Positions 1 through 11,520 of a stretch of DNA of 11,520 bases are shown in pieces. The stretch is from the IMG/VR virus record IMGVR_UViG_2671180727_000025; one strand, 5' to 3'. Below the pieces are notes generated by a model. The model was not told the DNA's origin. It worked only from the letters and a program-made list of their open reading frames with translations, and did no database searches. The translations under genes were made by a program, and so were the position numbers. Positions within the stretch are counted from its first letter, which is position 1. The number at the start of each line of letters is the position of its first letter. This DNA is from a virus. Lineage: Duplodnaviria; Heunggongvirae; Uroviricota; Caudoviricetes.

Positions 1-17
1 AGGGGAGCATATGACAC

Positions 18-47
18 ATAAAACAAAGGCGACCGGGGGCGGTCGCC
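18..47 (-). terminator. Rho-independent terminator for the leftward regulator gene
   Basis: Perfect 8-bp GC-rich inverted repeat GGCGACCG (28-35) / CGGTCGCC (40-47) with a 4-nt loop; on the - strand it is followed by TTTGTTTTAT (complement of 18-27). Lies about 90 nt downstream of the stop of the - strand CDS 136..438. Confidence 0.55.
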
Positions 48-135
48 AATGGGAAAACACTAAACATAAGCCCGAACATCATAGCGATTTGCTGGCTGGT
101 GGGCAATGTGATCAGTGTGGTGGTTTGCTGGTGGA

Positions 136-438
136 TTATTCCGCTTCTTTGGCCTTGCGACGCTGGAGTTCTTCGCGTGCAACGGTGACAAGTTGCCCGA
201 TTTCTTCCGCTGCTTTGATGCCGATTTGTTCGACCTTAGCCAGAGCATCCAGTGAAGACACAAGGGGATTTTCTCCGCTGCCTTCTGCCTGGCGGCGTGC
301 TATTTCTCCGCGCATGGCGGTTACGATAAATCCTGCATTGCTCTCGCCGTCCAGCTTAACGGATTCCATGCCTTGCATGACATCGTGAGGGACTCTGAGC
401 GTTGTCATTTGAGATTTTGCGTTTTTGTATACGGACAT
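136..438 (-). CDS. Putative ribbon-helix-helix (CopG/Arc-like) transcriptional regulator, divergently transcribed
   Basis: 100-aa ORF with a GGTGA Shine-Dalgarno 6 nt upstream of the ATG (read on the - strand). The N-terminus (TTLRVPHDVMQGMESV...FIVTAMRGEIARR) fits a beta-strand/helix/helix pattern by eye. It sits directly beside the operator repeat array and opposite the rightward operon. Fold assignment is inference, no search was run. Confidence 0.45.
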   Translation of the reverse strand: MSVYKNAKSQMTTLRVPHDVMQGMESVKLDGESNAGFIVTAMRGEIARRQAEGSGENPLVSSLDALAKVEQIGIKAAEEIGQLVTVAREELQRRKAKEAE

Positions 439-456
439 AATTAATCACCAGTTTAT

Positions 457-560
457 TGTGTGTATATCACTATACAGTAAAGTGAGATATAAAAAAACTT
501 GAAATGTATATCACATCAATGTAACGTGTATCTCACATGATGATTATGTGTATCTCATGT
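457..560. promoter_or_regulatory. Divergent promoter/operator region with periodic TGTAT(A/C)TCAC repeats
   Basis: AT-rich intergenic region between divergent genes. Direct copies at 461-470 (TGTATATCAC), 505-514 (TGTATATCAC), 527-536 (TGTATCTCAC) and 549-558 (TGTATCTCAT), plus an inverted copy at 482-491 (GTGAGATATA). Centres are about 22 bp apart. The first site is part of a 16-bp palindrome, TGTATA-TCAC-TATACA (461-476). Confidence 0.6.
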
Positions 561-635
561 ACGAAAAGACGAAACCCCGCAGTGCTGGAACACATACGGG
601 GCTTCTAACCACAAACACTATAGAGAGGTAAATTT

Positions 636-833
636 ATGGTTGCCGTAAATCATACTCCACGACTAGCACACACACAAACGGCCTTTGTGTGGCGTTTTCT
701 GGCCCTGAGTGCCGGAGAATCTCAAATCATCCACGTAACCGCCTGGACGGAACGCGAAGCGCGTAACCGTTGCCCGTCCGGTTGTGTTGCTGTATTTGCC
801 GCCCGTATTCGTCAGGAGGTGCGCCATGATTAA
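636..833 (+). CDS. Hypothetical small protein, first gene of the rightward operon (possibly Icd-like, tentative)
   Basis: 65-aa ORF with ATG at 636 and a GAGAGG Shine-Dalgarno at 623-628 (7-nt spacing). Its stop overlaps the next gene's start. The motif ...FVWRF...VAVFAARI... is loosely reminiscent of Icd-like small proteins of P4-type elements; this is recollection only, not a search result. Confidence 0.4.
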   Translation: MVAVNHTPRLAHTQTAFVWRFLALSAGESQIIHVTAWTEREARNRCPSGCVAVFAARIRQEVRHD

Positions 834-1038
834 TCTGTCACTTACTGACCTTAACCGCATTCAGTTTCGTGAGAAATTCACAGGGCAGCTACTGGTCAAT
901 GTGGATAAAGGTCGCGTGGTGTGTAATTACCACTTACCAGATGAAGCAATTGTCGCCACAAGGGAATCATTACAGGAAATCACAAAACGTGCCGGAATGA
1001 TTAACACGAATATTCAGGGGATGCTTTATGCACAATAA
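826..1038 (+). CDS. Hypothetical protein
   Basis: 70-aa ORF starting at the internal ATG 826 of track ORF 784..1038, preceded by AGGAGG (814-819, 6-nt spacing). Overlaps the upstream stop by 8 nt, suggesting translational coupling. Confidence 0.5.
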   Translation: MINLSLTDLNRIQFREKFTGQLLVNVDKGRVVCNYHLPDEAIVATRESLQEITKRAGMINTNIQGMLYAQ

Positions 1039-1288
1039 AACCACACCGGACGCAGCCGCCGAAGCCATCAAAACGCTGATGCACGCGCTGATTGATATTT
1101 CTGTTATCGCGGACAGGGCACATAAGCACGCCACCAGCGAAACAGAATATGCCGGGGCTTTCGTTCCTCATTCGCTGGCGGTTATGCAACTTAGTGCTGA
1201 TATGGCGCTGAATGAGGCCAAAGCTATCCTGATTGCTGATTGTGAAAATGGGGGGGGGTTATGCGTGATGATCGTTTTTATTCCCTGA
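1028..1288 (+). CDS. Hypothetical protein
   Basis: 86-aa ORF with ATG at 1028 and an AGGGG Shine-Dalgarno (1016-1020). Its 3' end reads through a G9 homopolymer (1250-1258) and overlaps the next gene by 28 nt. Confidence 0.45.
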   Translation: MHNKTTPDAAAEAIKTLMHALIDISVIADRAHKHATSETEYAGAFVPHSLAVMQLSADMALNEAKAILIADCENGGGLCVMIVFIP

Positions 1289-1494
1289 AACAAGAATTTT
1301 CCGGCGTATCTGATGATGCGGCTGATGCGCTTTCGTCAATGCCAGAACTTATTAGAGCGGCTTTTTTCTTACTTTCCACGAAAGAATATAAATCAACGGG
1401 ACTTGATGTACTGAATATCACCGCCGATTATGCGGAATATGTGGCAGAGGCGCGTTACAGAAGAAAATTTCCTGAGGATGTAAGCCATGCGTGA
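1261..1494 (+). CDS. Hypothetical protein
   Basis: 77-aa ORF with ATG at 1261 immediately after the G-rich tract, which can serve as its Shine-Dalgarno. Its stop overlaps the next start (ATGCGTGA). Confidence 0.45.
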   Translation: MRDDRFYSLKQEFSGVSDDAADALSSMPELIRAAFFLLSTKEYKSTGLDVLNITADYAEYVAEARYRRKFPEDVSHA

Positions 1495-1720
1495 TATTTA
1501 TCTTGAAACAATAGACCGCGCATCACTTGCACTTTCTCACAGTGAAAACATGATGGAAATATTGCGGATGTGCCTTGAATCCTTTGGCGATAATGAACGT
1601 AATGCAAAAAAAACGCGGATTATTACATCATTAATAACGCTTCTTGAGCCTGTAATAAATGAGTTGCAGGAAATAGAGACATTGCACGACAGATATAACG
1701 AACAGCACACCGGAGAATAA
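1487..1720 (+). CDS. Hypothetical protein
   Basis: 77-aa ORF with ATG at 1487 and a GAGGA Shine-Dalgarno (1474-1478). Overlaps the upstream stop. Confidence 0.45.
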   Translation: MRDIYLETIDRASLALSHSENMMEILRMCLESFGDNERNAKKTRIITSLITLLEPVINELQEIETLHDRYNEQHTGE

Positions 1721-1725
1721 AAATA

Positions 1726-2025
1726 ATGAAACTTAAATATTCTGGCTTAACTGCCAGTGGCAACACTCACCCTAAATTTACGCGCGGTGATATTTACCGC
1801 GACCAGTACGGCGGCACGGTAATGATTAAGGGCGTGGCGGGACGGTGCGTAACTTACCGCCGTGAAGGTTACGAATATGATTGCGTGATGCCTGTTTATC
1901 AGTTCCGGCGTGATTTTTCTCTGGTACAGACCGCGCCGCATAACGTGCCCACCAGCAACGCCAGGGCACGGGCAAACCTCCAGAAGCTGAAAACCATGAT
2001 TAACGGATTCAGGGGTAAAAAATGA
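1726..2025 (+). CDS. Hypothetical protein
   Basis: 99-aa ORF with ATG at 1726 and a GGAGAA Shine-Dalgarno (1712-1717). Its stop overlaps the start of the helicase gene (ATGA at 2022-2025). Confidence 0.5.
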   Translation: MKLKYSGLTASGNTHPKFTRGDIYRDQYGGTVMIKGVAGRCVTYRREGYEYDCVMPVYQFRRDFSLVQTAPHNVPTSNARARANLQKLKTMINGFRGKK

Positions 2026-3431
2026 AACTGGCACCGAACGTAAAACTATTACCGAAAGACAAATACACCGATGCGATTATTTTTGCGGGTATTGATGCTC
2101 ATTCATTCGCAGAGCATTACATCATTGCACAGGCCAAAAAAGCAGGCGATCCAGTCCCTCCCGTTTATCTGGGGCGTTATCAGTTAAGCGAACTGGATAA
2201 CCTCCAGATTGTTGATGATGGGCGATACAGGGCGACGGTGATACGCGCCGGAAATATTGAAGAGCCGCAGCTGTTAACCATCGCCACGAAACTGGCGATC
2301 GCCGGAGTCCAGGAGGCGCGGCTACTTTCTGAAAATTTCGAATTGCTGGAGGAATGGAGCGACCAGCTTCCACGGCTTAGGGAGGCATGGGAACGCGGGG
2401 AAAGCCTGGTCATGAAAAAAATCCCCCAGCGAAAAACCACGCTACCGATGAGCGTTGGATCTACCGGATACGACACACAGCTTGATTACGTGGTAAAGGG
2501 GATTATTCCGGCATCGTCGCTTTGCAGCATATACGGGGCGAGCGGTTCCTATAAATCATTCCTTGCCGGATCGTGGGCGTGTCACGTTTCCACGGGCCGC
2601 CAGTGGGGAGGCCGCAGGGTGGCGCATGGCGCTGTTCTCTATGTGGTTGGTGAAGGCGGTATCGGCGTTCCGCGTCGTGTAAAAGCCTGGGAGGTTGTGC
2701 ACGGTGAGCAGGTGAAAAATCTGTATCTGGTAAACCGTCCCATCTTTCCGGCTGTCCCGCTTGATGTTGATGAACTGGTTATTGCTGCCAGTCAGGTGGA
2801 GAGGGAAACGGGTAAACCTGTTCGCATGATTATTCTGGACACGCTGGCGCGCTGCTTTGGCGGCAATGATGAAAATGACTCCCGCGACATGGGGGCGTTT
2901 ATCCGTGGGTGTGACGAACTGAAACGACGCACAGGGGCCACGGTGCTGGTGGTTCACCATTCCGGCAAGGATGAGACGAAAGGCGCGCGCGGTTCCAGTG
3001 CATTTCGTGCTTCGCTGGATGCTGAATACCGGATACGCAGGGAGGACGCAGGAAGCGAAGCGCTGGTTATCTCATGCACCAAAATGAAGGACGCGGAGGA
3101 ACTCAAAGAGGCTGCCTATGATTTGCGGGTAGTGGAGCTTTTTACCGACGCTGACGGGGAGTTAATCACGTCGCTGGTGGTGGTGGATAAGCCGCGCCCT
3201 CCCGTTGAACTGGAGCGCATCGAAGAGGCAGGCAACAAGACGGAAAACCATACCGCGCTATGGGGGTGTATCCGTTCACGCACACAGAACGGCGACAAGT
3301 GCACGATCCCGCTGTTACGTGATGACATGAAAAAACTGGGGTACGAAATAAAGCACTTCCGGCGCTGGCTGGGCAAGCTGGAAAAAGACGGCGTTATCTA
3401 TGTTGACGGCGATGATGTAGGGCCACTGTAA
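2022..3431 (+). CDS. Replication initiator/helicase, RepA-like AAA_25 (RecA-fold) ATPase
   Basis: 469-aa ORF. Walker A-like IYGASGSYKS, Walker B-like VRMIILDTLARCFGG, and a downstream VLVVHHSGKD motif are typical of RepA/DnaB-like AAA_25 helicases of plasmids and PICI/satellite Rep proteins. No primase zinc-finger or TOPRIM motif recognised by eye. An iteron array begins 1 nt after the stop. Confidence 0.8.
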   Translation: MKLAPNVKLLPKDKYTDAIIFAGIDAHSFAEHYIIAQAKKAGDPVPPVYLGRYQLSELDNLQIVDDGRYRATVIRAGNIEEPQLLTIATKLAIAGVQEARLLSENFELLEEWSDQLPRLREAWERGESLVMKKIPQRKTTLPMSVGSTGYDTQLDYVVKGIIPASSLCSIYGASGSYKSFLAGSWACHVSTGRQWGGRRVAHGAVLYVVGEGGIGVPRRVKAWEVVHGEQVKNLYLVNRPIFPAVPLDVDELVIAASQVERETGKPVRMIILDTLARCFGGNDENDSRDMGAFIRGCDELKRRTGATVLVVHHSGKDETKGARGSSAFRASLDAEYRIRREDAGSEALVISCTKMKDAEELKEAAYDLRVVELFTDADGELITSLVVVDKPRPPVELERIEEAGNKTENHTALWGCIRSRTQNGDKCTIPLLRDDMKKLGYEIKHFRRWLGKLEKDGVIYVDGDDVGPL

Positions 3432-3634
3432 AAAGTGGGGGGCAAAAGTGGTGGGCATGGGGAATTTAACAAAATTTAAACACGACCCCCCACTTTTTGA
3501 CCTGTATACATCCCAAAAAGTGGGGAGCAAAAAAAATTCTTATGAAACAGTATGATAAAAATTACAAATCCCACGCCTTTAACGAGATGGGGAATTGTGA
3601 AAAGTGGGGAGTAAAAGTGGGTATAGGTGGGGAG
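3432..3634. repeat. Iteron array, putative origin of replication
   Basis: At least seven copies of (A)AAAGTGGGG(A/G): 3432-3442, 3444-3455, inverted 3486-3498 (CCCCCCACTTTTT), 3515-3527, 3599-3611, 3613-3622, and a degenerate 3623-3634. Two repeat clusters flank an AT-rich core (about 3528-3598). Position immediately downstream of the Rep helicase matches rep-ori organisation in PICI/SaPI-type elements. Confidence 0.6.
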
Positions 3635-3886
3635 ATGACACAAAAACGCAAAGACAGAACACAGCCAAAATATAAAGCGTTAGACATGACAGAGCACGCT
3701 TTAAAGGTGGCAATCAGAACGATAGACCGCCACGCGGGGGAAGGATACGCGAAGGAGCATCCCGAACTGATAAGCGCATTCATGACCACAGCGGCGGCAA
3801 ACTTTGCCACGCTGACAGAACGGGAGATTGCCGAAGCGGAACAGGTAACAACAATCAACGTTAAAACCGGAGAGGTGGAATCATGA
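3635..3886 (+). CDS. Hypothetical protein
   Basis: Internal ATG 3635 of track ORF 3497..3886, 83 aa. Chosen because the upstream in-frame portion merely translates the iteron repeats (KWGVKVGIGGE). A G-rich stretch (3626-3634) lies just upstream. Start is uncertain; alternatives are ATG 3587 and ATG 3542. Confidence 0.4.
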   Translation: MTQKRKDRTQPKYKALDMTEHALKVAIRTIDRHAGEGYAKEHPELISAFMTTAAANFATLTEREIAEAEQVTTINVKTGEVES

Positions 3887-4188
3887 GCGAACCAAAATTT
3901 GGTGAAAAATTTTACAAGCACAACGGACGGATCACGATTCTGCAAATAAGCGCAGCTACACCAGGCTGGTGGGTTGAAACAGACGAAGGATCCTCACCCG
4001 TGGCATCATGGGCGCTTTGTGTGCTTAGTTACCCTGACCGCGATGTGTATCAGGATATTCTGCCTGTGATATCCACAGACAAAGGCATGAAACCCGTAGA
4101 CATCAAAAGCATGGGTTTTCAGTGCGTAATGCTCACTGAAAAAATGATGGAAGAGATGAAAAAGAACAACGCCGGATCGCTTCACTGA
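3883..4188 (+). CDS. Hypothetical protein
   Basis: 101-aa ORF with ATG at 3883 overlapping the upstream stop (ATGA) and a GGAGAGGTGG Shine-Dalgarno at 3869-3878. Confidence 0.5.
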   Translation: MSEPKFGEKFYKHNGRITILQISAATPGWWVETDEGSSPVASWALCVLSYPDRDVYQDILPVISTDKGMKPVDIKSMGFQCVMLTEKMMEEMKKNNAGSLH

Positions 4189-4197
4189 GGTGGCAAT

Positions 4198-4608
4198 ATG
4201 ACAGCACAAATTGCAGCTTACGGGCGGCTGGTGGACGACCCGCTGGTAAAACAGAGCAGCAAGGGCACACCGATGACTCTGGCGCGTATGGCGGTATCGT
4301 TGCCATGCAGCCAGGCACATGACGGACAGGCGACGTTATGGTTATCGGTTATCGCATTTGGCAAACAGGCCGATTTCCTGGCTAAACATCAAAAAGGCGA
4401 TGTTGCCAGCGTATCCGGCACGATGCAGGTAAGCCAGTGGACCGGACAGAACGGGGAAACACGGCAGGGGTATCAGGTTATTGCGGACAGCGTAATCAGT
4501 GCCCGCGCGGCACGTCCTGGCGGGAACAGACGCAAAGCCACAGGCACACAGGGTAATCAGCCACCAGCGGGAGGTGATGACCCTTACGGTGATGATATTC
4601 CGTTCTGA
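4198..4608 (+). CDS. ssb: Single-stranded DNA-binding protein (short SSB with acidic C-terminal tip)
   Basis: 136-aa ORF. OB-fold-like N-terminal region, a Gly/Pro/Gln-rich linker, and a C-terminus DDPYGDDIPF that matches the conserved acidic SSB tail (DDDIPF). GAGGTGG Shine-Dalgarno at 4187-4193. Confidence 0.8.
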   Translation: MTAQIAAYGRLVDDPLVKQSSKGTPMTLARMAVSLPCSQAHDGQATLWLSVIAFGKQADFLAKHQKGDVASVSGTMQVSQWTGQNGETRQGYQVIADSVISARAARPGGNRRKATGTQGNQPPAGGDDPYGDDIPF

Positions 4609-4618
4609 GGGGGTGACG

Positions 4619-4891
4619 ATGGCACATGACCGCATAGCGGAGGAACTCGAGGCAAAAGGCTTTTACCGGAGGGCGGCGGCGCGATGGGGTGAAGTCATGC
4701 AACTGGTGGAGACAGACAAGGAACGGCATCAGGTTACGATGCGACGGCTGGAATGTTCCAGGAAGGCACAGAGGCCACCGGAGCCGCCGGATAACTTCGG
4801 AGACCTGAGAAAGGCAGTCGATCGCACTTATGCTGAAATGGGTATGGATGGTGTAAGCGATGAAATATGGCGTAATTACACAGACAGCTAA
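4619..4891 (+). CDS. PerC-family transcriptional regulator (tentative)
   Basis: 90-aa ORF from the internal ATG 4619 of track ORF 4499..4891, with a GAGGGGG Shine-Dalgarno (4607-4613). The N-terminal motif AEELEAKGFYRRAAARWGEVM resembles the conserved PerC/Pch N-terminus as I recall it. Followed by a strong terminator. Confidence 0.5.
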   Translation: MAHDRIAEELEAKGFYRRAAARWGEVMQLVETDKERHQVTMRRLECSRKAQRPPEPPDNFGDLRKAVDRTYAEMGMDGVSDEIWRNYTDS

Positions 4892-4896
4892 TCAAC

Positions 4897-4929
4897 AGCC
4901 GGAGCAATCCGGCTTTTTGTTATTTTTTG
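4897..4929 (+). terminator. Rho-independent terminator
   Basis: AGCCGGA (4897-4903), GCAA loop, TCCGGCT (4908-4914), followed by TTTTTGTTATTTTTTG. Sits 6 nt after the PerC-like stop. Confidence 0.8.
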
Positions 4930-5178
4930 TAAATTATTTGTTCGTGGTTGTTCCACGTTGTTCACTGAGCGGATCGGCATATTTTACCCGAACTGAATCA
5001 TGATTATTCTCGCCCGTGGTGCCAGGACGCTGGGGCCACTTTCCCGCCTGTTAATGTGCTCGCCAATATTCATTACCAGGCGGGAAAACGATCGGTGCGA
5101 TTACTGATTTCCTTATGAAAAACGGTTGAGTGTTTGCCGCGTCCTGGAGTTCCTTACTTAACCCCAGGACTTTTTTTT
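4930..5178 (+). promoter_or_regulatory. Leader/control region of the head-morphogenesis operon
   Basis: About 250 bp of non-coding DNA between a strong terminator and the capsid gene. Contains tandem GTTGTTC(C)AC repeats (4947-4965), a candidate sigma70-like promoter (TTGTTC 4958-4963, 16-nt spacer, TATTTT 4980-4985), a perfect 9-bp inverted repeat TCCCGCCTG (5042-5050) / CAGGCGGGA (5077-5085), and a hairpin GTCCTGG (5141-5147) / CCAGGAC (5164-5170) followed by T8 (5171-5178) abutting the capsid ATG. Confidence 0.4.
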
Positions 5179-6336
5179 ATGCAGAGAATAATCGAATTAC
5201 GCCAGCAGAAAACCGCCATTAAAAATCAGATGCGCGACATGCTGGAGAACGCGGAAAAAGAAAACCGCAGTCTTAACGATGCTGAGGGCGCAAAATTTGA
5301 CGAATTACGCGCTAAAGCTGAATCCCTCGATAAAGACATTTCCCGCCTTGAAGCCATTGCAGACGAAGAGCGCAGCAAGCCAGGTAAAAGCAGCCAGACC
5401 ACTGACCCCGCAGAACTACGCAGCTACATTCTGACAGGTGAAACCCGCGCATTAAGTACAGGCGTTCCCGCTGATGGTGGTTATACCGTTATCCCCGAAC
5501 TGAACACCGAAATCATGCGAATGCTGGCGGATGAATCCACCATGCGCCGCATCTGTACCGTGAAAAAAATCAGCAGCAACGAGTTTAAGCAGCTTGTTTC
5601 CGCTGGCGGTGCGACCGTTAACCACGGTGAAGAGGGTAAGGCACGCGAACAGACCAGCACCCCGCAGATTAACGAGGTGAGCATTAAGCTGTATCCGGTC
5701 TATGCGTACCCGCGCACCACACAGGAAATCGTGGATTTTTCCGATGTGGACATCCTTTCATGGCTGACGGGTGAGATTGGCGACACCTTCACGGAAACCG
5801 AAGAAAGCGATCTGGTTGTGGGCGACGGTGACAAAAAAGCAAAAGGTTTTTTATCCGTACCCCGTGCAGAGAAGAACGACAAAGAGCGTGATTTTGGTAC
5901 GTTGCAGGTAATTAAACCTTCCGAATCTCTGGCGTGGACATCTGCGGACCCGCTGATCGACCTGAAATTTGCATTACGTAAAAAATACCGCAAAAACGCG
6001 GTCTGGGTGGTTAACTCCACGACGGCGGCAAAACTCCAGAAGGTGAAGAACGCGAACGGTGATTACATCTGGCGTGACCGTTTACAGGCGGGTGATCCTG
6101 ATACGTTGCTGGGCCTTCCGGTCGAATATCTGGAGTTTATGCCTGATAACGTTATTGCCCTGGGTGACTTCAAACGCGGTTACTACATTGTTGATCACGA
6201 AACAGGTGTTCGCACCAGACCGGACAACCTCACAGAGCCGGGCTTCATCAAAATTTTCACGCAGAAATATTTAGGCGGTGGCGTGGTGGATTCGAACGCG
6301 ATCAAGATTCTGGAACTGCCACAGGACGACGATTAA
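5179..6336 (+). CDS. Major capsid protein, HK97 family, with N-terminal coiled-coil delta/scaffold domain
   Basis: 385 aa from ATG 5179; the track ORF starts at an upstream in-frame TTG 5134. N-terminal 90 aa are charged and coiled-coil-like (ELRQQKTAIKNQMRDMLENAEKE...). The C-terminal body has HK97-fold-like motifs (VVGDGDKKAKGFLS, YIWRDRLQAGDPDTLLGLPVEYLEFMP). No clear Shine-Dalgarno for either start. Confidence 0.88.
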   Translation: MQRIIELRQQKTAIKNQMRDMLENAEKENRSLNDAEGAKFDELRAKAESLDKDISRLEAIADEERSKPGKSSQTTDPAELRSYILTGETRALSTGVPADGGYTVIPELNTEIMRMLADESTMRRICTVKKISSNEFKQLVSAGGATVNHGEEGKAREQTSTPQINEVSIKLYPVYAYPRTTQEIVDFSDVDILSWLTGEIGDTFTETEESDLVVGDGDKKAKGFLSVPRAEKNDKERDFGTLQVIKPSESLAWTSADPLIDLKFALRKKYRKNAVWVVNSTTAAKLQKVKNANGDYIWRDRLQAGDPDTLLGLPVEYLEFMPDNVIALGDFKRGYYIVDHETGVRTRPDNLTEPGFIKIFTQKYLGGGVVDSNAIKILELPQDDD

Positions 6337-6375: not shown

Positions 6376-6390
6376 ATGGGTGAAAAAATT

Positions 6391-6948
6391 ATGAAGAGTA
6401 TGGAAATCCGGTCATCGGAAATCACCACCAGCGGCAGCAACACGCTTACAGGCTACGTTGTTCGCTGGGATAAGCTTTCAGAACTGTTATGGGGTGAGTT
6501 TTACGAAAAATTCCAGCGGGGGGCGTTTACTGAATGGCTTGCGGCGGGTAATGACGTTCGCGGCCTGTATGAGCATGACCACAGTATGTTACTGGGGCGC
6601 ACCCGTTCCGGCACGCTGAAACTGGAAGAGGATGAAACAGGGTTACGCTTTGAACTGACCCCACCGGATACCAGTACAGGGCGCGACGTTATCGAACTGG
6701 TTAAACGTGGTGATATATCCGGCATGAGCTTTGGCTTTCGCTCCCGTAAGGATGTATGGGATACCACAACAGATCCATGCGTGCGCACCGTGCTGGTGGC
6801 GGAACTGTACGAAATTACCGTTACATCGGTACCGGCTTACCCCGATTCCGGCGTGGAGCTGGCCCGCCGTTCCCTGTATGAGCAGCACCCCGAAAAAATG
6901 CCGCGTGCGGATAATCGCCGCTGGTGGGTGGATTTAGCGGGGGTGTGA
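6391..6948 (+). CDS. Prohead serine protease, HK97 family
   Basis: Track ORF 6376..6948; preferred start is ATG 6391 (MKSMEIRS...), with GGGTGA 7 nt upstream. N-terminal ...GYVVRWDKLSE..., a candidate catalytic His (EHDHSMLLGRT) and Ser (DISGMSFGF) match the HK97 prohead protease pattern. Confidence 0.85.
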   Translation: MKSMEIRSSEITTSGSNTLTGYVVRWDKLSELLWGEFYEKFQRGAFTEWLAAGNDVRGLYEHDHSMLLGRTRSGTLKLEEDETGLRFELTPPDTSTGRDVIELVKRGDISGMSFGFRSRKDVWDTTTDPCVRTVLVAELYEITVTSVPAYPDSGVELARRSLYEQHPEKMPRADNRRWWVDLAGV

Positions 6949-6949
6949 T

Positions 6950-8161
6950 ATGTGGCCTTTCAGAAGAAAAAAAGAGCAGCGCAGCATGACGCTTGATGAA
7001 TTTATGGCGCTGGCTGGCACATCGAACACGGGGGCGGGTGAGTACGTATCATCGGGGACAGCGGAATCACTGCCTGCCGTCATGAACGCCGTTACGGTCA
7101 TCTCTGAGGCGGTGGCTACTATGCCATGCTACCTGTACCTGGTACGCAATGAGAAGGGGAAGGAGGCCCGCGAGTGGCTTGATTCTCATCCGGTCGATCA
7201 CATCCTCAACGAGCGCCCGAACGCATGGCAAACCCCCTACCAGTTTAAGCGAATGATGATCCGCCACTGCCTGTTAAACGGTAATGCTTATGCGGTTATT
7301 CAGTGGGGGCGTGATGGTTTTCCGGCGGCTTTACATCCTTACCCGCCGCAGTCGGTGAACGTGGAGCAGACAGGCGAACACAACTGGCGCTATTGCATCA
7401 CTGACGCCTACACCGGAAACACCCACAACTATTTACCGTGGGAAGTACTTCACCTTCGTTACTCCACGGATGACGGCTTTATGGGGCGCTCACCTGTAAC
7501 CATCTGCCGCGAATCGCTGGGGCTTGGGCTGGCCCAACAACGCCACGGCGCGAGCGTGATGCGTGATGGCATGATGGCGGCAGGGGTTATCACGTCAGGC
7601 GAATGGCTGGACGGCGTGAAGGGCAAACAGGCATTAGCCGCACTGGAACGCTACAAAGGGGCCAGAAACGCCGGAAAAACGCCCATCCTTGAAGGGGGGA
7701 TGAGCTATCAGCAGCTGGGCATGAGTAATCAGGATGCTGAATGGCTGGCCTCCCGTCGCTTTACCATTGAAGACATCGCCCGAATGTTCAACGTCTCGCC
7801 GATTTTTTTGCAGGAATACAGCAACAGCACCTACAGCAATTTCAGCGAGGCAAGCCGCGCATTTCTCACCATGACGATGCGCCCGTGGCTGGCGAACTTT
7901 GAGCAGCAGATAAAAAACGCCCTGCTGGTGGCCTCGCCTGTACCTGGTATCCGGTATCAGGTGGAGTTTGACAGCGCGGACCTGTTACGGGCCACACCTG
8001 GCGAACGCTTTGCCACCTATGAGCGCGGCATCAAATCCGGCGTTATGTGCCCGAACGAAGCCCGCGAACGTGAAGGACTGTCACCGCGTGATGGTGGTGA
8101 TGAGTTCAGTCAGGCATGGAAACAGGAAGTAAAAATCAGCGAGGGAGAAAAACCGGAATGA
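6950..8161 (+). CDS. Portal protein, HK97 family
   Basis: 403-aa ORF with ATG at 6950, 1 nt after the protease stop, and a GGGGGTG Shine-Dalgarno. Size and the conserved region around HPVDHILNERPNAWQTPYQF...LLNGNAYAV are consistent with HK97-type portals. Placement next to protease and capsid supports the call. Confidence 0.85.
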   Translation: MWPFRRKKEQRSMTLDEFMALAGTSNTGAGEYVSSGTAESLPAVMNAVTVISEAVATMPCYLYLVRNEKGKEAREWLDSHPVDHILNERPNAWQTPYQFKRMMIRHCLLNGNAYAVIQWGRDGFPAALHPYPPQSVNVEQTGEHNWRYCITDAYTGNTHNYLPWEVLHLRYSTDDGFMGRSPVTICRESLGLGLAQQRHGASVMRDGMMAAGVITSGEWLDGVKGKQALAALERYKGARNAGKTPILEGGMSYQQLGMSNQDAEWLASRRFTIEDIARMFNVSPIFLQEYSNSTYSNFSEASRAFLTMTMRPWLANFEQQIKNALLVASPVPGIRYQVEFDSADLLRATPGERFATYERGIKSGVMCPNEAREREGLSPRDGGDEFSQAWKQEVKISEGEKPE

Positions 8162-8496
8162 ACATAGGGCGACTGCGTGACAGGATAACGATTCAGACCC
8201 TGAAACAGACCAGAGCCATGACGGGCGAAATACTCGAAACGTGGGAGGACGGTCACACACTCTGGGCAAGCGTGAACATGATCAGCAGCAAGGAGGCCAT
8301 TTCATCGGGCGCAGAGCTGGCGATTGGTACCGTAAGGATCTGGATACGGTACCGGAAGGACATCAACGCCACCAGCCGGATAAAGGTCAGTACGGGGCCG
8401 CTGGCGGGGCGTGTACTGAATATCATCGGGCAGCCGTTGCCGGATGTCGCCAGGACACGCCTTGAAATTCTTTGTCGTGAGGGCGCGGAAAAATGA
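8158..8496 (+). CDS. Head closure / head-tail adaptor protein (SPP1 gp16-like)
   Basis: 112 aa from ATG 8158, which overlaps the portal stop (ATGA), with a GAGGGAG Shine-Dalgarno at 8141-8147. N-terminal MNIGRLRDRITIQ and the IRYRKDI core are characteristic of this family. The track ORF start 8116 lies inside the portal gene and is rejected. Confidence 0.7.
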   Translation: MNIGRLRDRITIQTLKQTRAMTGEILETWEDGHTLWASVNMISSKEAISSGAELAIGTVRIWIRYRKDINATSRIKVSTGPLAGRVLNIIGQPLPDVARTRLEILCREGAEK

Positions 8497-8789
8497 CAGA
8501 AGAACTTATCACCCTGGAAGAAGTGAAACTCCATTGCCGTATCGATGGAGACGAGGAAGACCAGTTAATCAGCGGATACATTGCCGCATCGCTTGAGGCG
8601 TGCCAGATACACATAGGCAGGCGCTTTGATGACGGGCTGGAGTTCACGCCAGCCATAAAGATTGGCTGCATGATGTTTATCGCTCACCTGTATGAGAATC
8701 GCCAGATTGTCGCGGATAACGCAAAAACACGCGTACCCATGACGATTGGCGCACTCTGGACGGCTTACCGTGATGTGGGGGTGTACTGA
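8493..8789 (+). CDS. gp6-like head-tail connector protein
   Basis: 98-aa ORF with ATG overlapping the upstream stop (ATGA). N-terminal ITLEEVKLHCRIDGDEEDQLISGYIAASLEACQ matches the typical gp6-like connector N-terminus. Confidence 0.7.
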   Translation: MTEELITLEEVKLHCRIDGDEEDQLISGYIAASLEACQIHIGRRFDDGLEFTPAIKIGCMMFIAHLYENRQIVADNAKTRVPMTIGALWTAYRDVGVY

Positions 8790-9229
8790 TGCCGTGGCAA
8801 CCATTAAGACGATGCACAGAACCAGGCTGTAACAGGCGCGTTAAATCCGGCAAGTGTGAGGAGCACAGGCGGGCGGCATGGCGTGCAGAGGATGCCAGAC
8901 GAGGACACCGCCGCGCGCGTGGATATTCCAGACAGTGGGACAAATACCGCGCCATGTATCTGAGTAAAAACCCGTTATGCGTGCGATGCCTTGAGAAGGG
9001 GATATATACGCCCGCCGTGGTGGTGGATCACATTATCCCGATTAATGGCGGTGATGATGTTCTCTTCTGGCCCGAATGGAACCATCAACCATTGTGTCAG
9101 GCGTGTCATAACCAGAAAACGAAATGGCTTGATCCGGCAACAAAAAGCAAGCGTGCCGCAGGTGGATTTCGTGAAGAGGAAGAACGGGCCGCTAACCGCA
9201 ATAACTGGATGTATGACGCTGATGAATGA
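8789..9229 (+). CDS. HNH endonuclease, terminase-associated (HK97 gp74-like)
   Basis: 146-aa ORF with ATG overlapping the upstream stop. Cys pairs (CTEPGCN, CVRC, CQACHNQ) and the DHIIPINGG...NHQPLCQACHNQKT HNH motif. Sits next to the terminase genes, as in cos-type HK97-like packaging modules. Confidence 0.88.
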   Translation: MPWQPLRRCTEPGCNRRVKSGKCEEHRRAAWRAEDARRGHRRARGYSRQWDKYRAMYLSKNPLCVRCLEKGIYTPAVVVDHIIPINGGDDVLFWPEWNHQPLCQACHNQKTKWLDPATKSKRAAGGFREEEERAANRNNWMYDADE

Positions 9230-9395
9230 TCGGGAACAAAACCGCCTTATCCGTGGACTTATAAGGCAGCGTGACGCATGGAAGACACAGGAAACAGGGC
9301 ATAAAGATAAAGCGTCAGGACGCGCAGAACGCATCACAGCGAAGCGATTAACCGACCGTGACCGCGAGGTTATGGAATGTTTCCGCAATCGCTGA
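9213..9395 (+). CDS. Possible small basic protein (hypothetical, weakly supported)
   Basis: 60-aa ORF (MTLMNDREQNRLIRGLIRQRDAWK...) from ATG 9213, overlapping the HNH 3' end in another frame. No convincing Shine-Dalgarno. The region could instead be non-coding packaging-site DNA. Confidence 0.25.
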   Translation: MTLMNDREQNRLIRGLIRQRDAWKTQETGHKDKASGRAERITAKRLTDRDREVMECFRNR

Positions 9396-9518
9396 TGAGG
9401 CTGTATGACGGGGTGGGGGGCGTTTTCAGGACAAACCCGACCCCGCCGGGCACCGAACGCCTCCTCAAATTTTTATGCACGGGAATTTTTTGAAAAATAA
9501 TCTGGCGAAAAAATAAGC
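9396..9518. other. Candidate packaging (cos) region upstream of the small terminase gene
   Basis: Non-coding stretch between the HNH and small terminase genes containing a G-rich tract (GGGGTGGGGGG, 9410-9420) and an imperfect GC-rich inverted repeat (9407-9418 versus 9436-9447). In HK97-like cos phages the cos site lies between the HNH gene and terS. Assignment is positional inference only. Confidence 0.2.
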
Positions 9519-9875
9519 ATGTCAAGACCACCGAAAGCCCCCGCCTACCTGGATGATATCGCCGTGAAGCAGTGGCGGGAAAAATCTAGGCAGCTTGCGG
9601 AACGGGGAGACCTGACCCCCGCCGACTGGAGCAATCTGGAACTGTATTGTGTCAACTACTCCATTTACCGGAAAGCCGTTGCAGACCTTGCGGCGCGCGG
9701 GTTCAGCATTGTTAACAGTCAGGGCGGTGAGAGCAGAAACCCCGCATTAAGCGCAAAATCCGACGCTGAAAGAGTGATGATAAAAATGGCCTCCTTGCTC
9801 GGTTTTGACCCGATAAGCCGCCGTAAAAATCCACCGGAAACAGAAGAAGAGGACGAGCTTGACCGCCTGGAATAA
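9519..9875 (+). CDS. Terminase small subunit, P27 family
   Basis: 118-aa ORF. The conserved pattern ...W..LELYCVNYSIYRKAVADL...NP...LLGFDPISRRK matches P27-type small terminases. Lies directly upstream of, and overlapping, the large terminase gene. Confidence 0.8.
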   Translation: MSRPPKAPAYLDDIAVKQWREKSRQLAERGDLTPADWSNLELYCVNYSIYRKAVADLAARGFSIVNSQGGESRNPALSAKSDAERVMIKMASLLGFDPISRRKNPPETEEEDELDRLE

Positions 9876-11520
9876 GTACGCAGAAGACGTAAAAACGGGC
9901 AAAATTCCGGCCTGTAAACGGCTGAAACAGGCCGTTAAACGGTACTTTTCGGACCTTGAAAGCCCCCTTTACACGTTCGATCGTGAGGTTGTGGAGCGGT
10001 TTATTGCCTTTTCCAGGGTGTGCCCGCACGTAAAAGGGCCGATGCGTGGCAGATCCATTGAGCTGGAGCCGTGGCAGCAGTTCGCCTTTGCGTGCATCCT
10101 CGGCTTTAAGGTTAAGGCCACCGGACGGCGCAAATACACGAGCGCCTTTATCGAAGTGCCGCGCAAAAATGCGAAATCCACGACCGCCGCGATTCTGGCT
10201 AACTGGTTTCTGATTATGGAGAACGGGCAGCAGGATATTTACACCGCAGCGGTGAGCCGTGACCAGGCGCGGATCGTTTTTGATGATGCGCGTCAGATGT
10301 GCCTTTTATCCCGACCGTTACGCAGGCGGGTGAATATTCAGGCCCACAAGGTGATGCACCCGAAAAGCAACAGCCTGTTAAAGCCGCTGGCAGCAAAAGC
10401 GGCAACCATCGAGGGCACAAACCCAAGCCTTTCCATCGTGGACGAATACCACCTACACCCCGATAACGGCGTTTATTCCGCGCTTGAGCTGGGGATGGGC
10501 GCACGTCCCGAAGGGCTGTTATTTGCCATTACCACATCGGGCAGTAACGTCGTTTCAGCCTGTAAGCAGCACTATGATTATTGCTGCCAGATCCTGGACG
10601 GCGAAGAGGTCAACGATTCAATTTTTGTGCTGATTTACGAGCTGGACGACGAAAACGAGGTTGATGATCCGGCGATGTGGATAAAGGCTAACCCTAACAT
10701 CGATGTTTCCGTGGATCGTGAAAAACTGGCCTCAACCATCCAGAAAGCGCGGGGTATTCCGTCGCAATGGGTGGAGATGATGACAAAGCGATTTAATATC
10801 TGGTGCCAGGGGGCTACCCCGTGGATGGGTAACGGCGCATGGGCTGAGTGTGCCGGAACGTACACGGAGGAAGATTTACACGGGCAGGAGTGTTACGCGG
10901 GGCTGGACTTATCATCAACCAGCGATATTTCCAGCGTGTGCTATGCCTTTCCGGTCGGTAAAAATATCATGCTGGTTTCCCGTCATTATCTGCCGGAGTT
11001 CCAGCTACAGAACCCCGCCAATAAAAACCGCGCTGTCTATCGCCAGTGGGCTAAAGCGGGCTGGATACGCACAACGCCAGGTGACTGCATTGATTACGAC
11101 CGGATCAGAGATGACATCATGCAGGATGCGGAGAAATTTAATATCAGGCTGGTGGGCTTTGATACGTGGAACGCCACGCATCTCAGGACGCAATTACAGG
11201 GGGCTGGTTTTGAGGTGGAGCCGTTCCCGCAAACCTACCTCAGATTCAGTCCGGCGGCGAAATCGTTCGAAGTTTTTGTTAACCGCAGGGTGATTGTGCA
11301 TCGTGGCGATCCGGTGTTGTCCTGGTCGATGAGTAACGTCGTGATGCAGAGTGACGCGAACGCCAATATCAAGCCGAACAAGAAAAAATCACCGAACAAG
11401 ATAGACCCGAGCGTGGCGGCGCTGATGGCGTTTGGTACATTCCAGGCAGAGCATGAGGATTTTGCTTTTGATATAAGCGACAGCCACCGCCAGAAACTGG
11501 AAGAATTTAGCGGGGTGTAA
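9859..11520 (+). CDS. Terminase large subunit (Terminase_1-type)
   Basis: 553-aa ORF. ATPase motifs (VPRKNAKST Walker A-like, SIVDEYH Walker B-like) and a C-terminal nuclease region. Apparent TTG start at 9859 overlaps the small-terminase 3' end by 17 nt, preceded by GAGGA (9849-9853); the first in-frame ATG is about 60 codons in and would truncate the conserved N-terminus. The stop is the last codon of the window. Confidence 0.9.
   Translation: MTAWNKYAEDVKTGKIPACKRLKQAVKRYFSDLESPLYTFDREVVERFIAFSRVCPHVKGPMRGRSIELEPWQQFAFACILGFKVKATGRRKYTSAFIEVPRKNAKSTTAAILANWFLIMENGQQDIYTAAVSRDQARIVFDDARQMCLLSRPLRRRVNIQAHKVMHPKSNSLLKPLAAKAATIEGTNPSLSIVDEYHLHPDNGVYSALELGMGARPEGLLFAITTSGSNVVSACKQHYDYCCQILDGEEVNDSIFVLIYELDDENEVDDPAMWIKANPNIDVSVDREKLASTIQKARGIPSQWVEMMTKRFNIWCQGATPWMGNGAWAECAGTYTEEDLHGQECYAGLDLSSTSDISSVCYAFPVGKNIMLVSRHYLPEFQLQNPANKNRAVYRQWAKAGWIRTTPGDCIDYDRIRDDIMQDAEKFNIRLVGFDTWNATHLRTQLQGAGFEVEPFPQTYLRFSPAAKSFEVFVNRRVIVHRGDPVLSWSMSNVVMQSDANANIKPNKKKSPNKIDPSVAALMAFGTFQAEHEDFAFDISDSHRQKLEEFSGV

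What the first reader, a model, noticed from the sequence alone, without database searches (positions are those of the whole stretch)
1..11520. Candidate capsid-forming phage satellite: replication module plus head-only HK97-type packaging module, no tail or lysis genes
Seen in sequence: a regulatory switch, Rep helicase with iteron origin and SSB, followed by capsid, prohead protease, portal, two head-completion proteins, HNH, small and large terminase, all on one strand in 11.5 kb, with no tail, tape-measure, baseplate, holin or endolysin ORF anywhere. Established knowledge: capsid-forming PICIs of Enterobacteria are described as encoding exactly this HK97-like head and packaging set while hijacking helper-phage tails. 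Inference: this is such a satellite, or a new variant, and the unassigned small ORFs may be its helper-interaction or interference genes.
Basis: partly seen in the sequence, partly recalled or inferred. Interest (0 to 1): 0.8.

Follow-up and report, generated by a model that had tools for sequence, protein, structure and literature searches.

The report
Known capsid-forming phage satellite (cf-PICI)
The window is most of a 15-kb E. coli phage satellite that builds its own small heads and borrows only tails from other phages; it is a close relative of the already characterised element EcCIEDL933, so it is real but not new.

Summary
Pfam confirms every named gene. On the + strand lie a RepA-type helicase with an iteron cluster just downstream, SSB, a PerC-family regulator, HK97-type capsid, S78 prohead protease, portal, head-closure/adaptor, gp6-type connector, HNH, small terminase and large terminase. 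One small gene lies on the - strand. There is no tail, tape-measure, holin or lysin gene.

The interpretation also holds. E. coli contigs 99.97% identical to the window carry a tyrosine integrase, a 264-aa ORF and AlpA just upstream. Downstream of the large terminase there is only a 93-aa ORF before thiM. A 14-bp att core bounds a 15.2-kb element. The reconstructed empty site is 100% identical to uninterrupted sites, which 4,727 of 5,426 complete E. coli genomes have.

The capsid protein is 381/385 identical to PDB 9GYI, the cryo-EM capsid of the prototype cf-PICI EcCIEDL933 (= CP-933C / O-island 51 / Sp7). The remaining head and packaging proteins are 95.5-99.5% identical to the O157:H7 copy. 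Two "unassigned" small ORFs are known host regulators, RgdR and PchE-like PerC.

The element is a mosaic member of a known, experimentally dissected family. It has a different integrase and att site and a 79%-identical RepA allele. Interest is low. Side observations are integration inside the thiM TPP riboswitch and phased TTGTTY boxes shared by both att arms and the capsid-operon leader.

The parts
11..133 (+). Truncated Icd-like gene fragment (pseudogene) directly downstream of alpA, which lies outside the window
   Evidence: RefSeq annotation of the 98.6% identical L001 reads 'Icd-like, incomplete'; ORF list
136..438 (-). YlcI/YnfO-family small protein (100 aa), the only - strand gene; candidate repressor side of the divergent switch (inferred)
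   Evidence: NCBIfam NF041551 E 5e-19; phrog_6522
439..635 (.). Divergent regulatory region with four TGTATMTCA repeats (461, 505, 527, 549)
   Evidence: 4 found against 0.09 expected; sequence
636..833 (+). Icd-like protein / PHROG 'transcriptional repressor' family, first gene of the rightward operon
   Evidence: NF033153 E 5e-18; phrog_1743 and phrog_6196
826..1720 (+). Four small ORFs (826-1038, 1028-1288, 1261-1494, 1487-1720) of phage/satellite families of unknown function. A G9 tract at 1250-1258 separates ORFs 2 and 3.
   Evidence: phrog_340, 5146/2512, 24341/2512, 2196; G9 versus G10 comparison; no PADLOC hit
1726..2025 (+). RgdR orthologue (DUF4222, 99 aa, RGD at residues 20-22), a known activator of LEE type III secretion and repressor of motility in EHEC
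   Evidence: Pfam DUF4222 E 2e-23; 99% identical to the O157:H7 copy; RgdR description in PMC3378721 and PMC6092414
2022..3431 (+). RepA-family replicative helicase/initiator (469 aa)
   Evidence: AAA_25 E 3e-43; RefSeq 'helicase RepA family'; 79% identical to the O157:H7 allele
3430..3622 (.). Iteron-type replication origin: AAAGTGGGG four times exactly plus two degenerate copies, about 85-bp phasing, A/T-rich spacers
   Evidence: the same iterons occur in L002 and L003
3635..4188 (+). Two conserved small ORFs (3635-3886, 3883-4188) of unknown function
   Evidence: phrog_1231 and phrog_27268
4198..4608 (+). Single-stranded-DNA-binding protein
   Evidence: Pfam SSB E 7e-16
4619..4891 (+). PerC-family regulator, homologue of EHEC PchE (88% identical)
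   Evidence: Pfam PerC E 2e-44; PMC3378721 places PchE on OI-51
4897..5178 (+). Leader of the head/packaging operon. It holds a terminator after perC (4897-4919), three phased TTGTTC boxes (4938-4963), a 17-bp-arm hairpin (5040-5087), and a hairpin plus U8 abutting the capsid ATG (about 5142-5177).
   Evidence: fold z-score -3.5
5179..6336 (+). HK97-fold major capsid protein with an N-terminal delta (scaffold) domain; the mature N-terminus motif STGVPAD starts at S93
   Evidence: Pfam Phage_capsid; 381/385 identical to PDB 9GYI, the EcCIEDL933 T=4 capsid
6376..6948 (+). HK97-type prohead serine protease
   Evidence: Peptidase_S78 E 4e-48
6950..8161 (+). Portal protein
   Evidence: Phage_portal E 2e-90
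8158..8496 (+). Head-closure / head-tail adaptor protein (a tail-specificity determinant in cf-PICIs)
   Evidence: Phage_HCP E 7e-23; 95.5% identical to the O157:H7 copy; role described
8493..8789 (+). gp6-like head-tail connector
   Evidence: Phage_connect_1 E 8e-12
8789..9229 (+). HNH endonuclease, packaging cofactor of the HK97-type terminase
   Evidence: Pfam HNH E 2e-8; role described
9213..9395 (+). 60-aa ORF matching by position (between HNH and terS) EcCIEDL933 'gene 1792', whose mutation severely reduces transfer
   Evidence: 98% identical to the O157:H7 copy; phrog_3173
9396..9518 (.). Probable cos region (G/C-rich GGGGTGGGGGGCG...CCCGACCCCGCCGGGC followed by an A/T-rich stretch)
   Evidence: Inference only. 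The linear record of particle-derived 'phage' vB_KppS-Ant ends at the homologous GGGGTGGGGGAGGTTTTCAGGAC and restarts 22 nt before terS. cf-PICIs have cohesive ends.
9519..9875 (+). Small terminase (P27 family)
   Evidence: Terminase_4 E 1e-23
9859..11520 (+). Large terminase (ATPase plus nuclease); its stop codon is the last base of the window
   Evidence: TerL_ATPase and TerL_nuclease

Best explanation
The window is the right-hand 11.5 kb (regulation, replication, head and packaging modules) of a roughly 15.2-kb capsid-forming phage-inducible chromosomal island (cf-PICI) of the EcCIEDL933 lineage, integrated in E. coli.

Proposed life cycle. Each step is marked as shown in the sequence, shown experimentally for the prototype, or inferred.

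1. The element sits integrated through a P4-type tyrosine integrase at a 14-bp core inside the thiM TPP riboswitch (shown in near-identical contigs).
2. A helper phage raises expression of AlpA. AlpA switches on excision and the rightward operon (shown for EcCIEDL933; inferred here).
3. RepA, with SSB, replicates the circle from the iteron origin just downstream of repA (genes and iterons shown; activity inferred).
4. The capsid protein, its delta domain, the S78 protease and the portal assemble a small T=4 HK97-fold head. This head fits about 15 kb but not a phage genome (inferred from 99% identity to the solved capsid).
5. TerS, TerL and HNH, helped by the small gene-1792 homologue, cut at a cos site that probably lies between that gene and terS. 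They package only satellite DNA (function shown by mutants in the prototype; cos position inferred).
6. The adaptor and connector close the head. Tail-less DNA-filled heads are released when some phage lyses the cell.
7. The heads become infectious by docking onto free siphovirus tails. The adaptor and connector alleles set tail compatibility (shown for the prototype, which uses HK106 tails; inferred here from 95.5% and 99% identity).

RgdR and the PchE-like PerC protein are cargo regulators that act on host virulence, motility and curli genes.
For: Gene content and order:
-.

Absence of tail, holin and lysin genes inside and beyond the window:
-.

Integrase (Arm-DNA-bind_3 plus Phage_integrase) and AlpA immediately upstream:
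- Seen in L001 (98.6% identical) and in the contig that holds L004/L010 (99.97% identical).

Defined ends and an empty site:
- The 14-bp core AGAAATACCCGTAT lies at L001 6471 and 21663, spacing 15,192 bp.
- The reconstructed attB is 100% identical to uninterrupted sites, and 4,727 of 5,426 genomes have the site uninterrupted.

Same packaging module at three different chromosomal sites with different integrases:
- thiM, tqsA and roxA/phoQ.

Identity to the prototype:
- Capsid 381/385 identical to PDB 9GYI, which is the EcCIEDL933 capsid: T=4, 47.5 nm, 15.5-kb genome.
- Protease, portal, adaptor, connector, HNH, gene-1792 homologue, TerS and TerL are 95.5-99.5% identical to the O157:H7 element.

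Genetics of the prototype:
- Every head or packaging gene is needed for transfer. Helper tail genes are needed. An alpA mutant is not induced.

Distance from phages:
- Almost no nucleotide similarity to 50,697 phage records.

Conservation:
- The syntenic head-only module is conserved in Shigella, Citrobacter, Erwinia, Gilliamella and Klebsiella.
Against: - Nothing in the sequence contradicts this explanation.
- int, alpA and the att ends are not in the window itself. They are inferred from contigs that differ from it by 2-3 bases over 11.5 kb.
- Function of this particular copy (inducibility, helper identity, tail compatibility, cos position) is untested.
- The adaptor differs from the EDL933-type adaptor at 5 of 112 residues.
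- RepA is only 79% identical to the prototype's allele, although the iteron core is shared.
Confidence: 0.93

Rival explanations
1. It is a decayed (cryptic) HK97-like prophage that has lost its tail and lysis genes. This is how CP-933C / O-island 51 was annotated for 20 years.
For: Historical annotation as a 'cryptic prophage' with P4 remnants. All structural genes have phage homologues.
Against: - All 21 ORFs are intact and tightly packed.
- The same head-only gene set and order recurs across genera at 35-81% protein identity, which indicates selection rather than decay.
- Ends are precise and the empty site is perfect.
- The module sits at three att sites with different integrases.
- The prototype is experimentally mobile and makes its own heads.
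- There is almost no DNA similarity to phages.
Confidence: 0.03
2. It is a genuine cf-PICI by descent, but this copy is inactive or helper-less in its host. It would then act only as a carrier of the host regulators RgdR and PerC.
For: - In strain EDL933 none of the 17 resident prophages induces the prototype.
- The left switch region of this variant is a mosaic with a truncated Icd-like fragment.
- The thiM-type int module is rare: 11 of 5,426 complete genomes at 80% cover or more.
Against: - No frameshift or stop occurs in any core gene.
- At least four assemblies carry copies 99.97% identical, and the same TerL sequence is indexed in 46 blocks of the collection. This fits recent spread.
- Prototype tail-less heads are made even without an inducing helper.
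Confidence: 0.12
3. It is a classical (non-capsid-forming) PICI or a P4-like satellite that remodels helper capsids.
For: It has a P4-type integrase, AlpA, RgdR, PerC and a unidirectional operon, as E. coli PICIs do.
Against: - It encodes its own MCP, protease, portal, adaptor, connector and TerL. These are 'forbidden' components for the PICI model.
- No ORF is left unaccounted for that could be a Sid/Psu/Delta-type gene or a P4 alpha primase.
Confidence: 0.01
4. It is a domesticated gene-transfer-agent-like head module.
For: The next-best solved relatives of the capsid are RcGTA capsids (E 1e-46).
Against: - It has its own integrase, att sites, replication origin and dedicated TerS/HNH/cos.
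- It is present in only a minority of strains and at different loci.
- GTAs are fixed, non-replicating and carry tail genes.
Confidence: 0.01

Closest known systems
EcCIEDL933 (= CP-933C, O-island 51, Sakai Sp7), the prototype capsid-forming PICI of E. coli O157:H7 (Alqurainy et al., bioRxiv 10.1101/2022.09.08.507074; He et al., bioRxiv 10.1101/2025.02.11.637232; capsid PDB 9GYI)
   Same: - Same gene order from rgdR to terL.
- Capsid 99% identical to 9GYI.
- Protease 98.9%, portal 99.5%, adaptor 95.5%, connector 99.0%, HNH 99.3%, gene-1792 homologue 98.3%, TerS 99.2%, TerL 98.9%, SSB 99.3% and RgdR 99% identical to the O157:H7 copy.
- Same iteron core.
- Same phased TTGTTY boxes at the att arms and the capsid leader.
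- About 15 kb in size.
   Different: - Integrated in the thiM riboswitch instead of between roxA and phoQ.
- Integrase 67% and AlpA 59% identical.
- An extra 264-aa ORF lies after int.
- The left switch and small ORFs are only 36-82% identical.
- RepA is 79% and PerC 88% identical.
- It lacks the two small ORFs that the O157 element has between perC and the capsid gene.
cfPICI family as defined by SatelliteFinder (de Sousa et al., NAR 2023, PMC10085698)
   Same: All 11 core components are present when the near-identical contigs are used for int and alpA. There are no tail or holin genes. It is chromosomal and from Enterobacteriaceae, i.e. 'Type A'.
   Different: Nothing at the level of the definition.
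Classical E. coli PICIs (EcCICFT073, EcCIED1a, EcCIMP1)
   Same: Same architecture of the int-alpA-rgdR-rep-perC left half and unidirectional transcription.
   Different: Those elements hijack helper capsids and terminase (Rpp redirection). They have no MCP, portal, TerL, adaptor or connector.
Phage HK97 and the helper HK106 head module
   Same: HK97-fold MCP with a delta domain, S78 protease, portal, gp6-like connector, and HNH-dependent cos packaging.
   Different: - The capsid is T=4 rather than T=7 and has no covalent cross-link (text of the 2025 preprint).
- The gene order puts HNH-terS-terL after the head genes.
- There are no tail, lysis or lysogeny-control genes.
- Sequence identity to phage proteins is low.
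'Escherichia phage vB_KppS-Ant' (LR881103.1), a 16.5-kb record from induced particles
   Same: Same head-only module and order. TerS 83%, TerL 81%, portal 81% and MCP 66% identical. The linear ends fall between the gene-1792 homologue and terS.
   Different: It has a different replicon (primase, GGTGAACAC iterons). The adaptor is 36% identical. A 765-aa ORF after terL is annotated as a tape-measure protein. It was deposited as a phage, not as a satellite.

Membership tests
Capsid-forming PICI (cf-PICI) | Tyrosine integrase at the left end | tested here: met
   Not in the window. It is present in L001 (98.6% identical) and in the contig of L004/L010 (99.97% identical): a 406/426-aa protein with Arm-DNA-bind_3 plus Phage_integrase.
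Capsid-forming PICI (cf-PICI) | AlpA-family master regulator downstream of int | tested here: met
   A 74-aa PF05930 protein ends one base before the window start in L001 and about 135 bp before it in L004-L007. It is not in the window itself.
Capsid-forming PICI (cf-PICI) | Own replication initiator with an adjacent origin | tested here: met
   RepA/AAA_25 at 2022-3431 plus the iteron cluster at 3430-3622.
Capsid-forming PICI (cf-PICI) | Own HK97-fold major capsid protein and prohead protease | tested here: met
   Pfam matches; 381/385 identical to the 9GYI cf-PICI capsid.
Capsid-forming PICI (cf-PICI) | [quoted passage not shown] | tested here: met
   Phage_portal, Phage_HCP and Phage_connect_1.
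Capsid-forming PICI (cf-PICI) | Own HNH, TerS and TerL | tested here: met
   HNH, Terminase_4, TerL_ATPase plus TerL_nuclease.
Capsid-forming PICI (cf-PICI) | No tail, holin or lysin genes ('forbidden' components) | tested here: met
   - All window ORFs are assigned.
- There is no holin-like hydrophobic segment.
- Flanks of near-identical contigs contain only host genes.
Capsid-forming PICI (cf-PICI) | About 10-16 kb, bounded by att repeats, with empty sites in other strains | tested here: met
   15,192 bp between the 14-bp cores. The reconstructed attB is 100% identical to uninterrupted sites, and 4,727 of 5,426 genomes have the site uninterrupted.
Capsid-forming PICI (cf-PICI) | Little overall similarity to complete phage genomes | tested here: met
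   Only 4 of 50,697 phage records match, at most 17% of the window. The best matches are themselves satellite-like records.
Capsid-forming PICI (cf-PICI) | Helper-dependent induction; small satellite-encoded capsids that carry helper tails | not testable with these tools
   Shown experimentally for EcCIEDL933. Inferred here from 95-99.5% protein identity.
Classical PICI | Absence of portal, adaptor, connector and TerL (uses helper capsids) | tested here: not met
   All four are present. The SatelliteFinder PICI model forbids them.
P4-like satellite | P4 alpha primase-helicase and Sid/Psu/Delta capsid-size and transactivation genes | tested here: not met
   The replication protein is RepA/AAA_25 only. 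No ORF matched these families in Pfam, NCBIfam or PHROGs. Only the integrase and AlpA are P4-like.
Complete HK97-like temperate prophage | Contiguous tail-morphogenesis and lysis modules | tested here: not met
   terL is followed by a 93-aa ORF and then thiM.

The most novel reading that the evidence does not exclude
The most novel reading the evidence leaves open concerns cis-regulation and host rewiring rather than the element's identity. It has two parts.

(a) One regulator may couple excision to head-gene expression.
- Three TTGTTY boxes phased at 10 bp occur upstream of the capsid operon and in both att arms of every relative examined, whatever the integrase type. In the O157 element they also occur between int and alpA.
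- A single element-encoded regulator, most plausibly AlpA acting as both excision factor and activator, would explain this.
- The regulator would act through a structured leader whose terminator-like hairpin abuts the capsid start codon.

(b) This variant integrates inside the thiM TPP riboswitch.
- That severs thiMD from its promoter and aptamer.
- It also places int downstream of the thiM promoter and a truncated aptamer.
- Island transcription and thiamine salvage and biosynthesis could therefore be linked.
Probability: 0.25. Interest if true: 0.4.

Novelty: already known. Interest (0 to 1): 0.15.

Why it matters
The result confirms that a reader with no tools can recognise a cf-PICI from raw sequence. 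[quoted passage not shown] This copy also carries RgdR and a PchE-like PerC, which are known to modulate type III secretion, motility and curli in pathogenic E. coli. The only parts that might add knowledge are the side observations: the thiM-riboswitch attachment site and the shared TTGTTY boxes. These are hypotheses, not findings.

Tried and rejected
- Rfam at gathering thresholds on the window plus L001 found nothing, so no known RNA family lies in the element. A permissive scan gave only sub-threshold TPP halves at the two junctions.
- tRNA scan: none, so this is not a tRNA-targeting island.
- The sigma-70 promoter scan gave fewer hits than shuffled sequence and none on the + strand. It is uninformative about the operon promoters.
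- PADLOC on ten small or flanking ORFs found no defence-system match. I therefore cannot support the idea that the small ORFs are interference or defence genes.
- Pfam and NCBIfam gave nothing for six small ORFs, the 264-aa ORF after int or the 93-aa ORF after terL.
- A literature search for thiM as an attB found nothing relevant. I could not check whether thiM is one of the 'six attB sites' reported for E. coli cf-PICIs, because that table is held only as an image.
- I first took the 71-nt direct repeat in L001 (D1) for the att site. I rejected that reading. Similar repeats flank elements at three different chromosomal loci, so they belong to the element (probably integrase arm sites). The real core is the 14-bp repeat further out, and the empty-site match proves it.
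- I considered the split of ORFs 1028-1288 and 1261-1494 to be a disabling frameshift and rejected that. Both halves exist as separate PHROG families and as separate genes in O157. The G10 version in L004 is the fused form.
- Structure prediction, the large protein-database searches and the metagenome scan were not used. The 99% match to a solved structure made them unnecessary.

Full report
**1. What is in the window**

The six-frame ORF list shows a tightly packed set of + strand genes and one - strand gene (136-438). There are no tRNAs. GC content is 46-58%, lower in the left third.

- RepA-type AAA_25 helicase, 2022-3431
- SSB, 4198-4608
- Phage_capsid, 5179-6336
- Peptidase_S78, 6376-6948
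- Phage_portal, 6950-8161
- Phage_HCP, 8158-8496
- gp6-like connector, 8493-8789
- HNH, 8789-9229
- Terminase_4, 9519-9875
- TerL ATPase plus nuclease, 9859-11520

The "iteron origin" is real. AAAGTGGGG occurs four times exactly and twice with one mismatch within about 190 bp directly after the repA stop. The repeats are phased at about 85 bp with A/T-rich spacers.

The "regulatory switch" is a 197-bp divergent region between a YlcI/YnfO-family gene and an Icd-like gene. It carries four TGTATMTCA repeats, against 0.09 expected by chance.

No ORF is left that could encode a tail, tape-measure, baseplate, holin or lysin protein. The small ORFs all fall into PHROG families of unknown or regulatory function. 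None has a holin-like hydrophobic segment. None matches a known defence system.

**2. Surroundings**

The window ends exactly at the terL stop codon and starts just after alpA.

An exact-protein look-up of TerL and of the YlcI-like protein returned E. coli draft-genome contigs 99.97% identical to the whole window, with 2-3 mismatches. Megablast against 5,426 complete E. coli genomes gave a 98.6% full-length match, L001.

In all of these the layout is the same:
- Left of the window: rcnR, then a tyrosine integrase (Arm-DNA-bind_3 plus Phage_integrase), a 264-aa ORF, and AlpA (PF05930).
- Right of the window: one 93-aa ORF, about 0.9 kb of non-coding DNA, and then thiM-thiD.

No tail or lysis genes follow terL.

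**3. Ends and mobility**

In L001 a 14-bp direct repeat, AGAAATACCCGTAT, lies at 6471-6484 and 21663-21676, a spacing of 15,192 bp.

I joined the left flank, one copy of the core and the right flank into a 569-nt sequence. That sequence is 100% identical to the rcnR-thiM region of many E. coli genomes. In 4,727 of 5,426 genomes the site is uninterrupted. The insertion is therefore precise and the element is not fixed.

The same head and packaging module, at about 98-99% nucleotide identity, also sits inside tqsA in an O145:H28 strain and between roxA and phoQ in O157:H7. In each case it has a different integrase (67% identical) and AlpA (59% identical).

**4. Identity**

The capsid protein is 381/385 identical to PDB 9GYI. 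The 2025 preprint states that 9GYI / EMD-51699 is the capsid of EcCIEDL933. That capsid is T=4 and 47.5 nm, uses the HK97 fold without the covalent cross-link, and holds a 15.5-kb genome. The mature N-terminal motif SxGxxAD is present as STGVPAD starting at S93.

The O157:H7 element between roxA and phoQ (L003) scores slightly higher against 9GYI. I treat it as the EcCIEDL933 lineage on that evidence.

Identity of the window's proteins to L003:

| Protein | Identity |
|---|---|
| Protease | 98.9% |
| Portal | 99.5% |
| Adaptor | 95.5% |
| Connector | 99.0% |
| HNH | 99.3% |
| Small ORF 9213-9395 | 98.3% |
| TerS | 99.2% |
| TerL | 98.9% |
| SSB | 99.3% |
| DUF4222 protein | 99% |
| PerC | 88% |
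| RepA | 79% |
| Leftmost small ORFs | 36-82% |

The window is therefore a mosaic. It combines the prototype's head and packaging module with a different integration, regulation and replication allele set.

EcCIEDL933 is the former "cryptic prophage" CP-933C / O-island 51 / Sp7.

**5. How it works**

The mechanism is taken from the experimental work on the prototype and transferred by homology.
- A helper phage raises alpA expression, and an alpA mutant is neither induced nor transferred.
- Mutation of each island head or packaging gene abolishes island transfer without affecting the helper. The exception is gene 1792, whose mutation severely reduces transfer.
- Helper capsid mutants still transfer the island. 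Helper tail mutants (major tail, tape measure) do not.
- Tail-less, DNA-filled heads are released even without an inducing helper. They become infectious by binding free tails. The adaptor and connector alleles decide which tails fit, and EcCIEDL933 uses HK106 tails.

Shown directly in this sequence are intact genes for each step, the origin, and candidate cis sites. Activity, helper identity and tail specificity of this copy are inferred.

The cos site is probably in 9396-9518. The linear record of the particle-derived Klebsiella element vB_KppS-Ant ends at the homologous G-rich motif and restarts 22 nt before terS. cf-PICI DNA has cohesive ends.

**6. The "unassigned small ORFs"**

- The DUF4222 protein (99 aa, RGD at residues 20-22) is the orthologue of RgdR/ECs1581. 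RgdR activates LEE1 and type III secretion and represses motility. It is reported to be encoded by all E. coli PICIs analysed in that study.
- The PerC-family protein is a PchE homologue. PchE represses csgD and curli and has little effect on LEE.
- ORF 9213-9395 sits where the prototype's gene 1792 sits, between HNH and terS, and is 98.3% identical to the O157:H7 copy.
- The remaining six small ORFs are conserved satellite or phage proteins of unknown function. There is no evidence here for or against a role in helper interference.

**7. Membership and novelty**

The SatelliteFinder definition of cfPICI has 11 core components: int, regulator, pri-rep, capsid, protease, portal, adaptor, connector, HNH, terS and terL. 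Tails and holins are forbidden. All 11 components are met, two of them only in the near-identical contigs. Size, att sites, empty sites and dissimilarity to phage genomes also fit.

The definitions of a classical PICI, a P4-like satellite, a complete prophage and a GTA are each contradicted by gene content or mobility.

The family is widespread. The literature reports 969 elements and presence in 13% of Enterobacteriaceae genomes. Here, 1,734 of 5,426 E. coli genomes share some part of the window and 82 share 80% or more of it. The syntenic module is also found in Shigella, Citrobacter, Erwinia, Gilliamella and Klebsiella. Across these the adaptor is the most divergent protein, at 35-47% identity.

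Verdict: real, correctly interpreted, already known. Interest is low.

**8. Things noticed that go beyond the finding**

*(a) The att core lies inside the thiM TPP riboswitch.* RefSeq annotates the riboswitch across the core in an empty site. In the occupied site neither half reaches the Rfam threshold: 34.6 and 19.5 bits against 54.3. As a result, thiMD is separated from its promoter and aptamer by 15 kb of co-directional island genes. No + strand terminator was detected in the right arm. int now lies about 190 bp downstream of the thiM promoter and the 5' half of the aptamer.

*(b) Phased TTGTTY boxes.* Three TTGTTC boxes spaced 10 bp apart (4938-4963) lie upstream of the capsid operon; none is expected by chance. 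The same phased boxes occur in both att arms of every related element fetched, whatever the integrase type. In O157 they also occur between int and alpA. A shared regulator, plausibly AlpA, is an inference that I could not find stated in the papers read.

*(c) The capsid leader is unusually structured.* The fold z-score is -3.5, and the leader ends in a hairpin plus U8 that abuts the capsid ATG.

*(d) A G9 tract at 1250-1258.* It is G10 in an otherwise near-identical contig, where it fuses two small ORFs into a 155-aa protein.

Noticed in passing
L001 6471-6484 and 21663-21676 (att cores); empty site L027 536-632: The element integrates at a 14-bp core inside the thiM TPP riboswitch aptamer.
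- In occupied sites neither half reaches the Rfam threshold (34.6 and 19.5 bits against 54.3).
- thiMD is cut off from its promoter and aptamer.
- int ends up about 190 bp downstream of the thiM promoter and the 5' half of the aptamer.
- No paper naming thiM as an attB was found.
   Followed up: partly
window 4938-4963; L001 6570-6595 and 21530-21555; L003 3577-3592, 4951-4976(-), 11589-11614 and 18941-18956: Three TTGTTY boxes phased at 10 bp lie upstream of the capsid operon. They recur in both att arms of every related element, whatever the integrase type. In the O157 element they also lie between int and alpA. None is expected by chance in the window. They are a candidate binding site for one regulator (AlpA?) that would link excision and head-gene expression.
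   Followed up: partly
window 4965-5185: The leader of the head operon is unusually structured (RNA fold z-score -3.5). It has a 17-bp-arm hairpin at 5040-5087 and a terminator-like hairpin plus U8 directly abutting the capsid ATG. This suggests attenuation, antitermination or translational control of the capsid operon.
   Followed up: partly
L001 6570-6640 and 21530-21600; analogous repeats in L002 and L003: Direct repeats of 71-76 nt lie just inside both ends of the element. Each ends in a tandem 11-12-mer that differs with integrase type: TGTGTGGTCAGT x2, GGTGTAGTTAAT x2 or GGTGTAGTCACT x2. These are probably integrase arm-type sites flanking the core in attP.
   Followed up: partly
window 1250-1258: A G9 homopolymer separates ORFs 1028-1288 and 1261-1494. 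A contig otherwise 99.97% identical (L004) has G10, which fuses them into a 155-aa protein matching the full-length phrog_2512. This could be slippage-prone phase variation or a homopolymer sequencing error.
   Followed up: partly
window 1-635: The left end is a mosaic: a truncated Icd-like fragment (11-133), a long (100-aa) YlcI/YnfO variant on the - strand, and four TGTATMTCA operator-like repeats (461-557). In the listed megablast rows only about three complete E. coli genomes (H1, H10, H23) match from the window's first bases; the other listed hits begin at position 558 or later.
   Followed up: partly
window 1726-2025 and 4619-4891: The island carries RgdR (RGD at residues 20-22; a LEE/T3SS activator and motility repressor in EHEC) and a PchE-like PerC regulator (a curli/csgD repressor in O157). 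It may therefore alter host virulence and adhesion phenotypes even when it is not mobilised.
   Followed up: yes
L001 20534-21660 (right arm, outside the window): After terL come a conserved 93-aa ORF with no family match and about 0.8 kb of non-coding DNA. That DNA holds three copies of a 40-nt repeat (GCGGTAACTGTTTGATATTCCCGATAACGCAAAATTGCGC; 20861, 20996, 21044). Function is unknown. The same repeats occur in L002.
   Followed up: no
L014 (LR881103.1, 'Escherichia phage vB_KppS-Ant'): This 16.5-kb record was deposited as a phage from an induced prophage. It has the cf-PICI head-only gene set plus int and a primase, so it is probably a satellite filed as a phage. A 765-aa ORF after terL is annotated as a 'tail length tape measure protein' and was not examined.
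   Followed up: no
L015-L019, L014 compared with window 8158-8496: Across genera the head-tail adaptor is by far the most divergent protein of the module (35-47% identity, and no hit in Erwinia). Portal and TerL are 65-81% identical. This fits the published role of the adaptor in tail specificity.
   Followed up: partly
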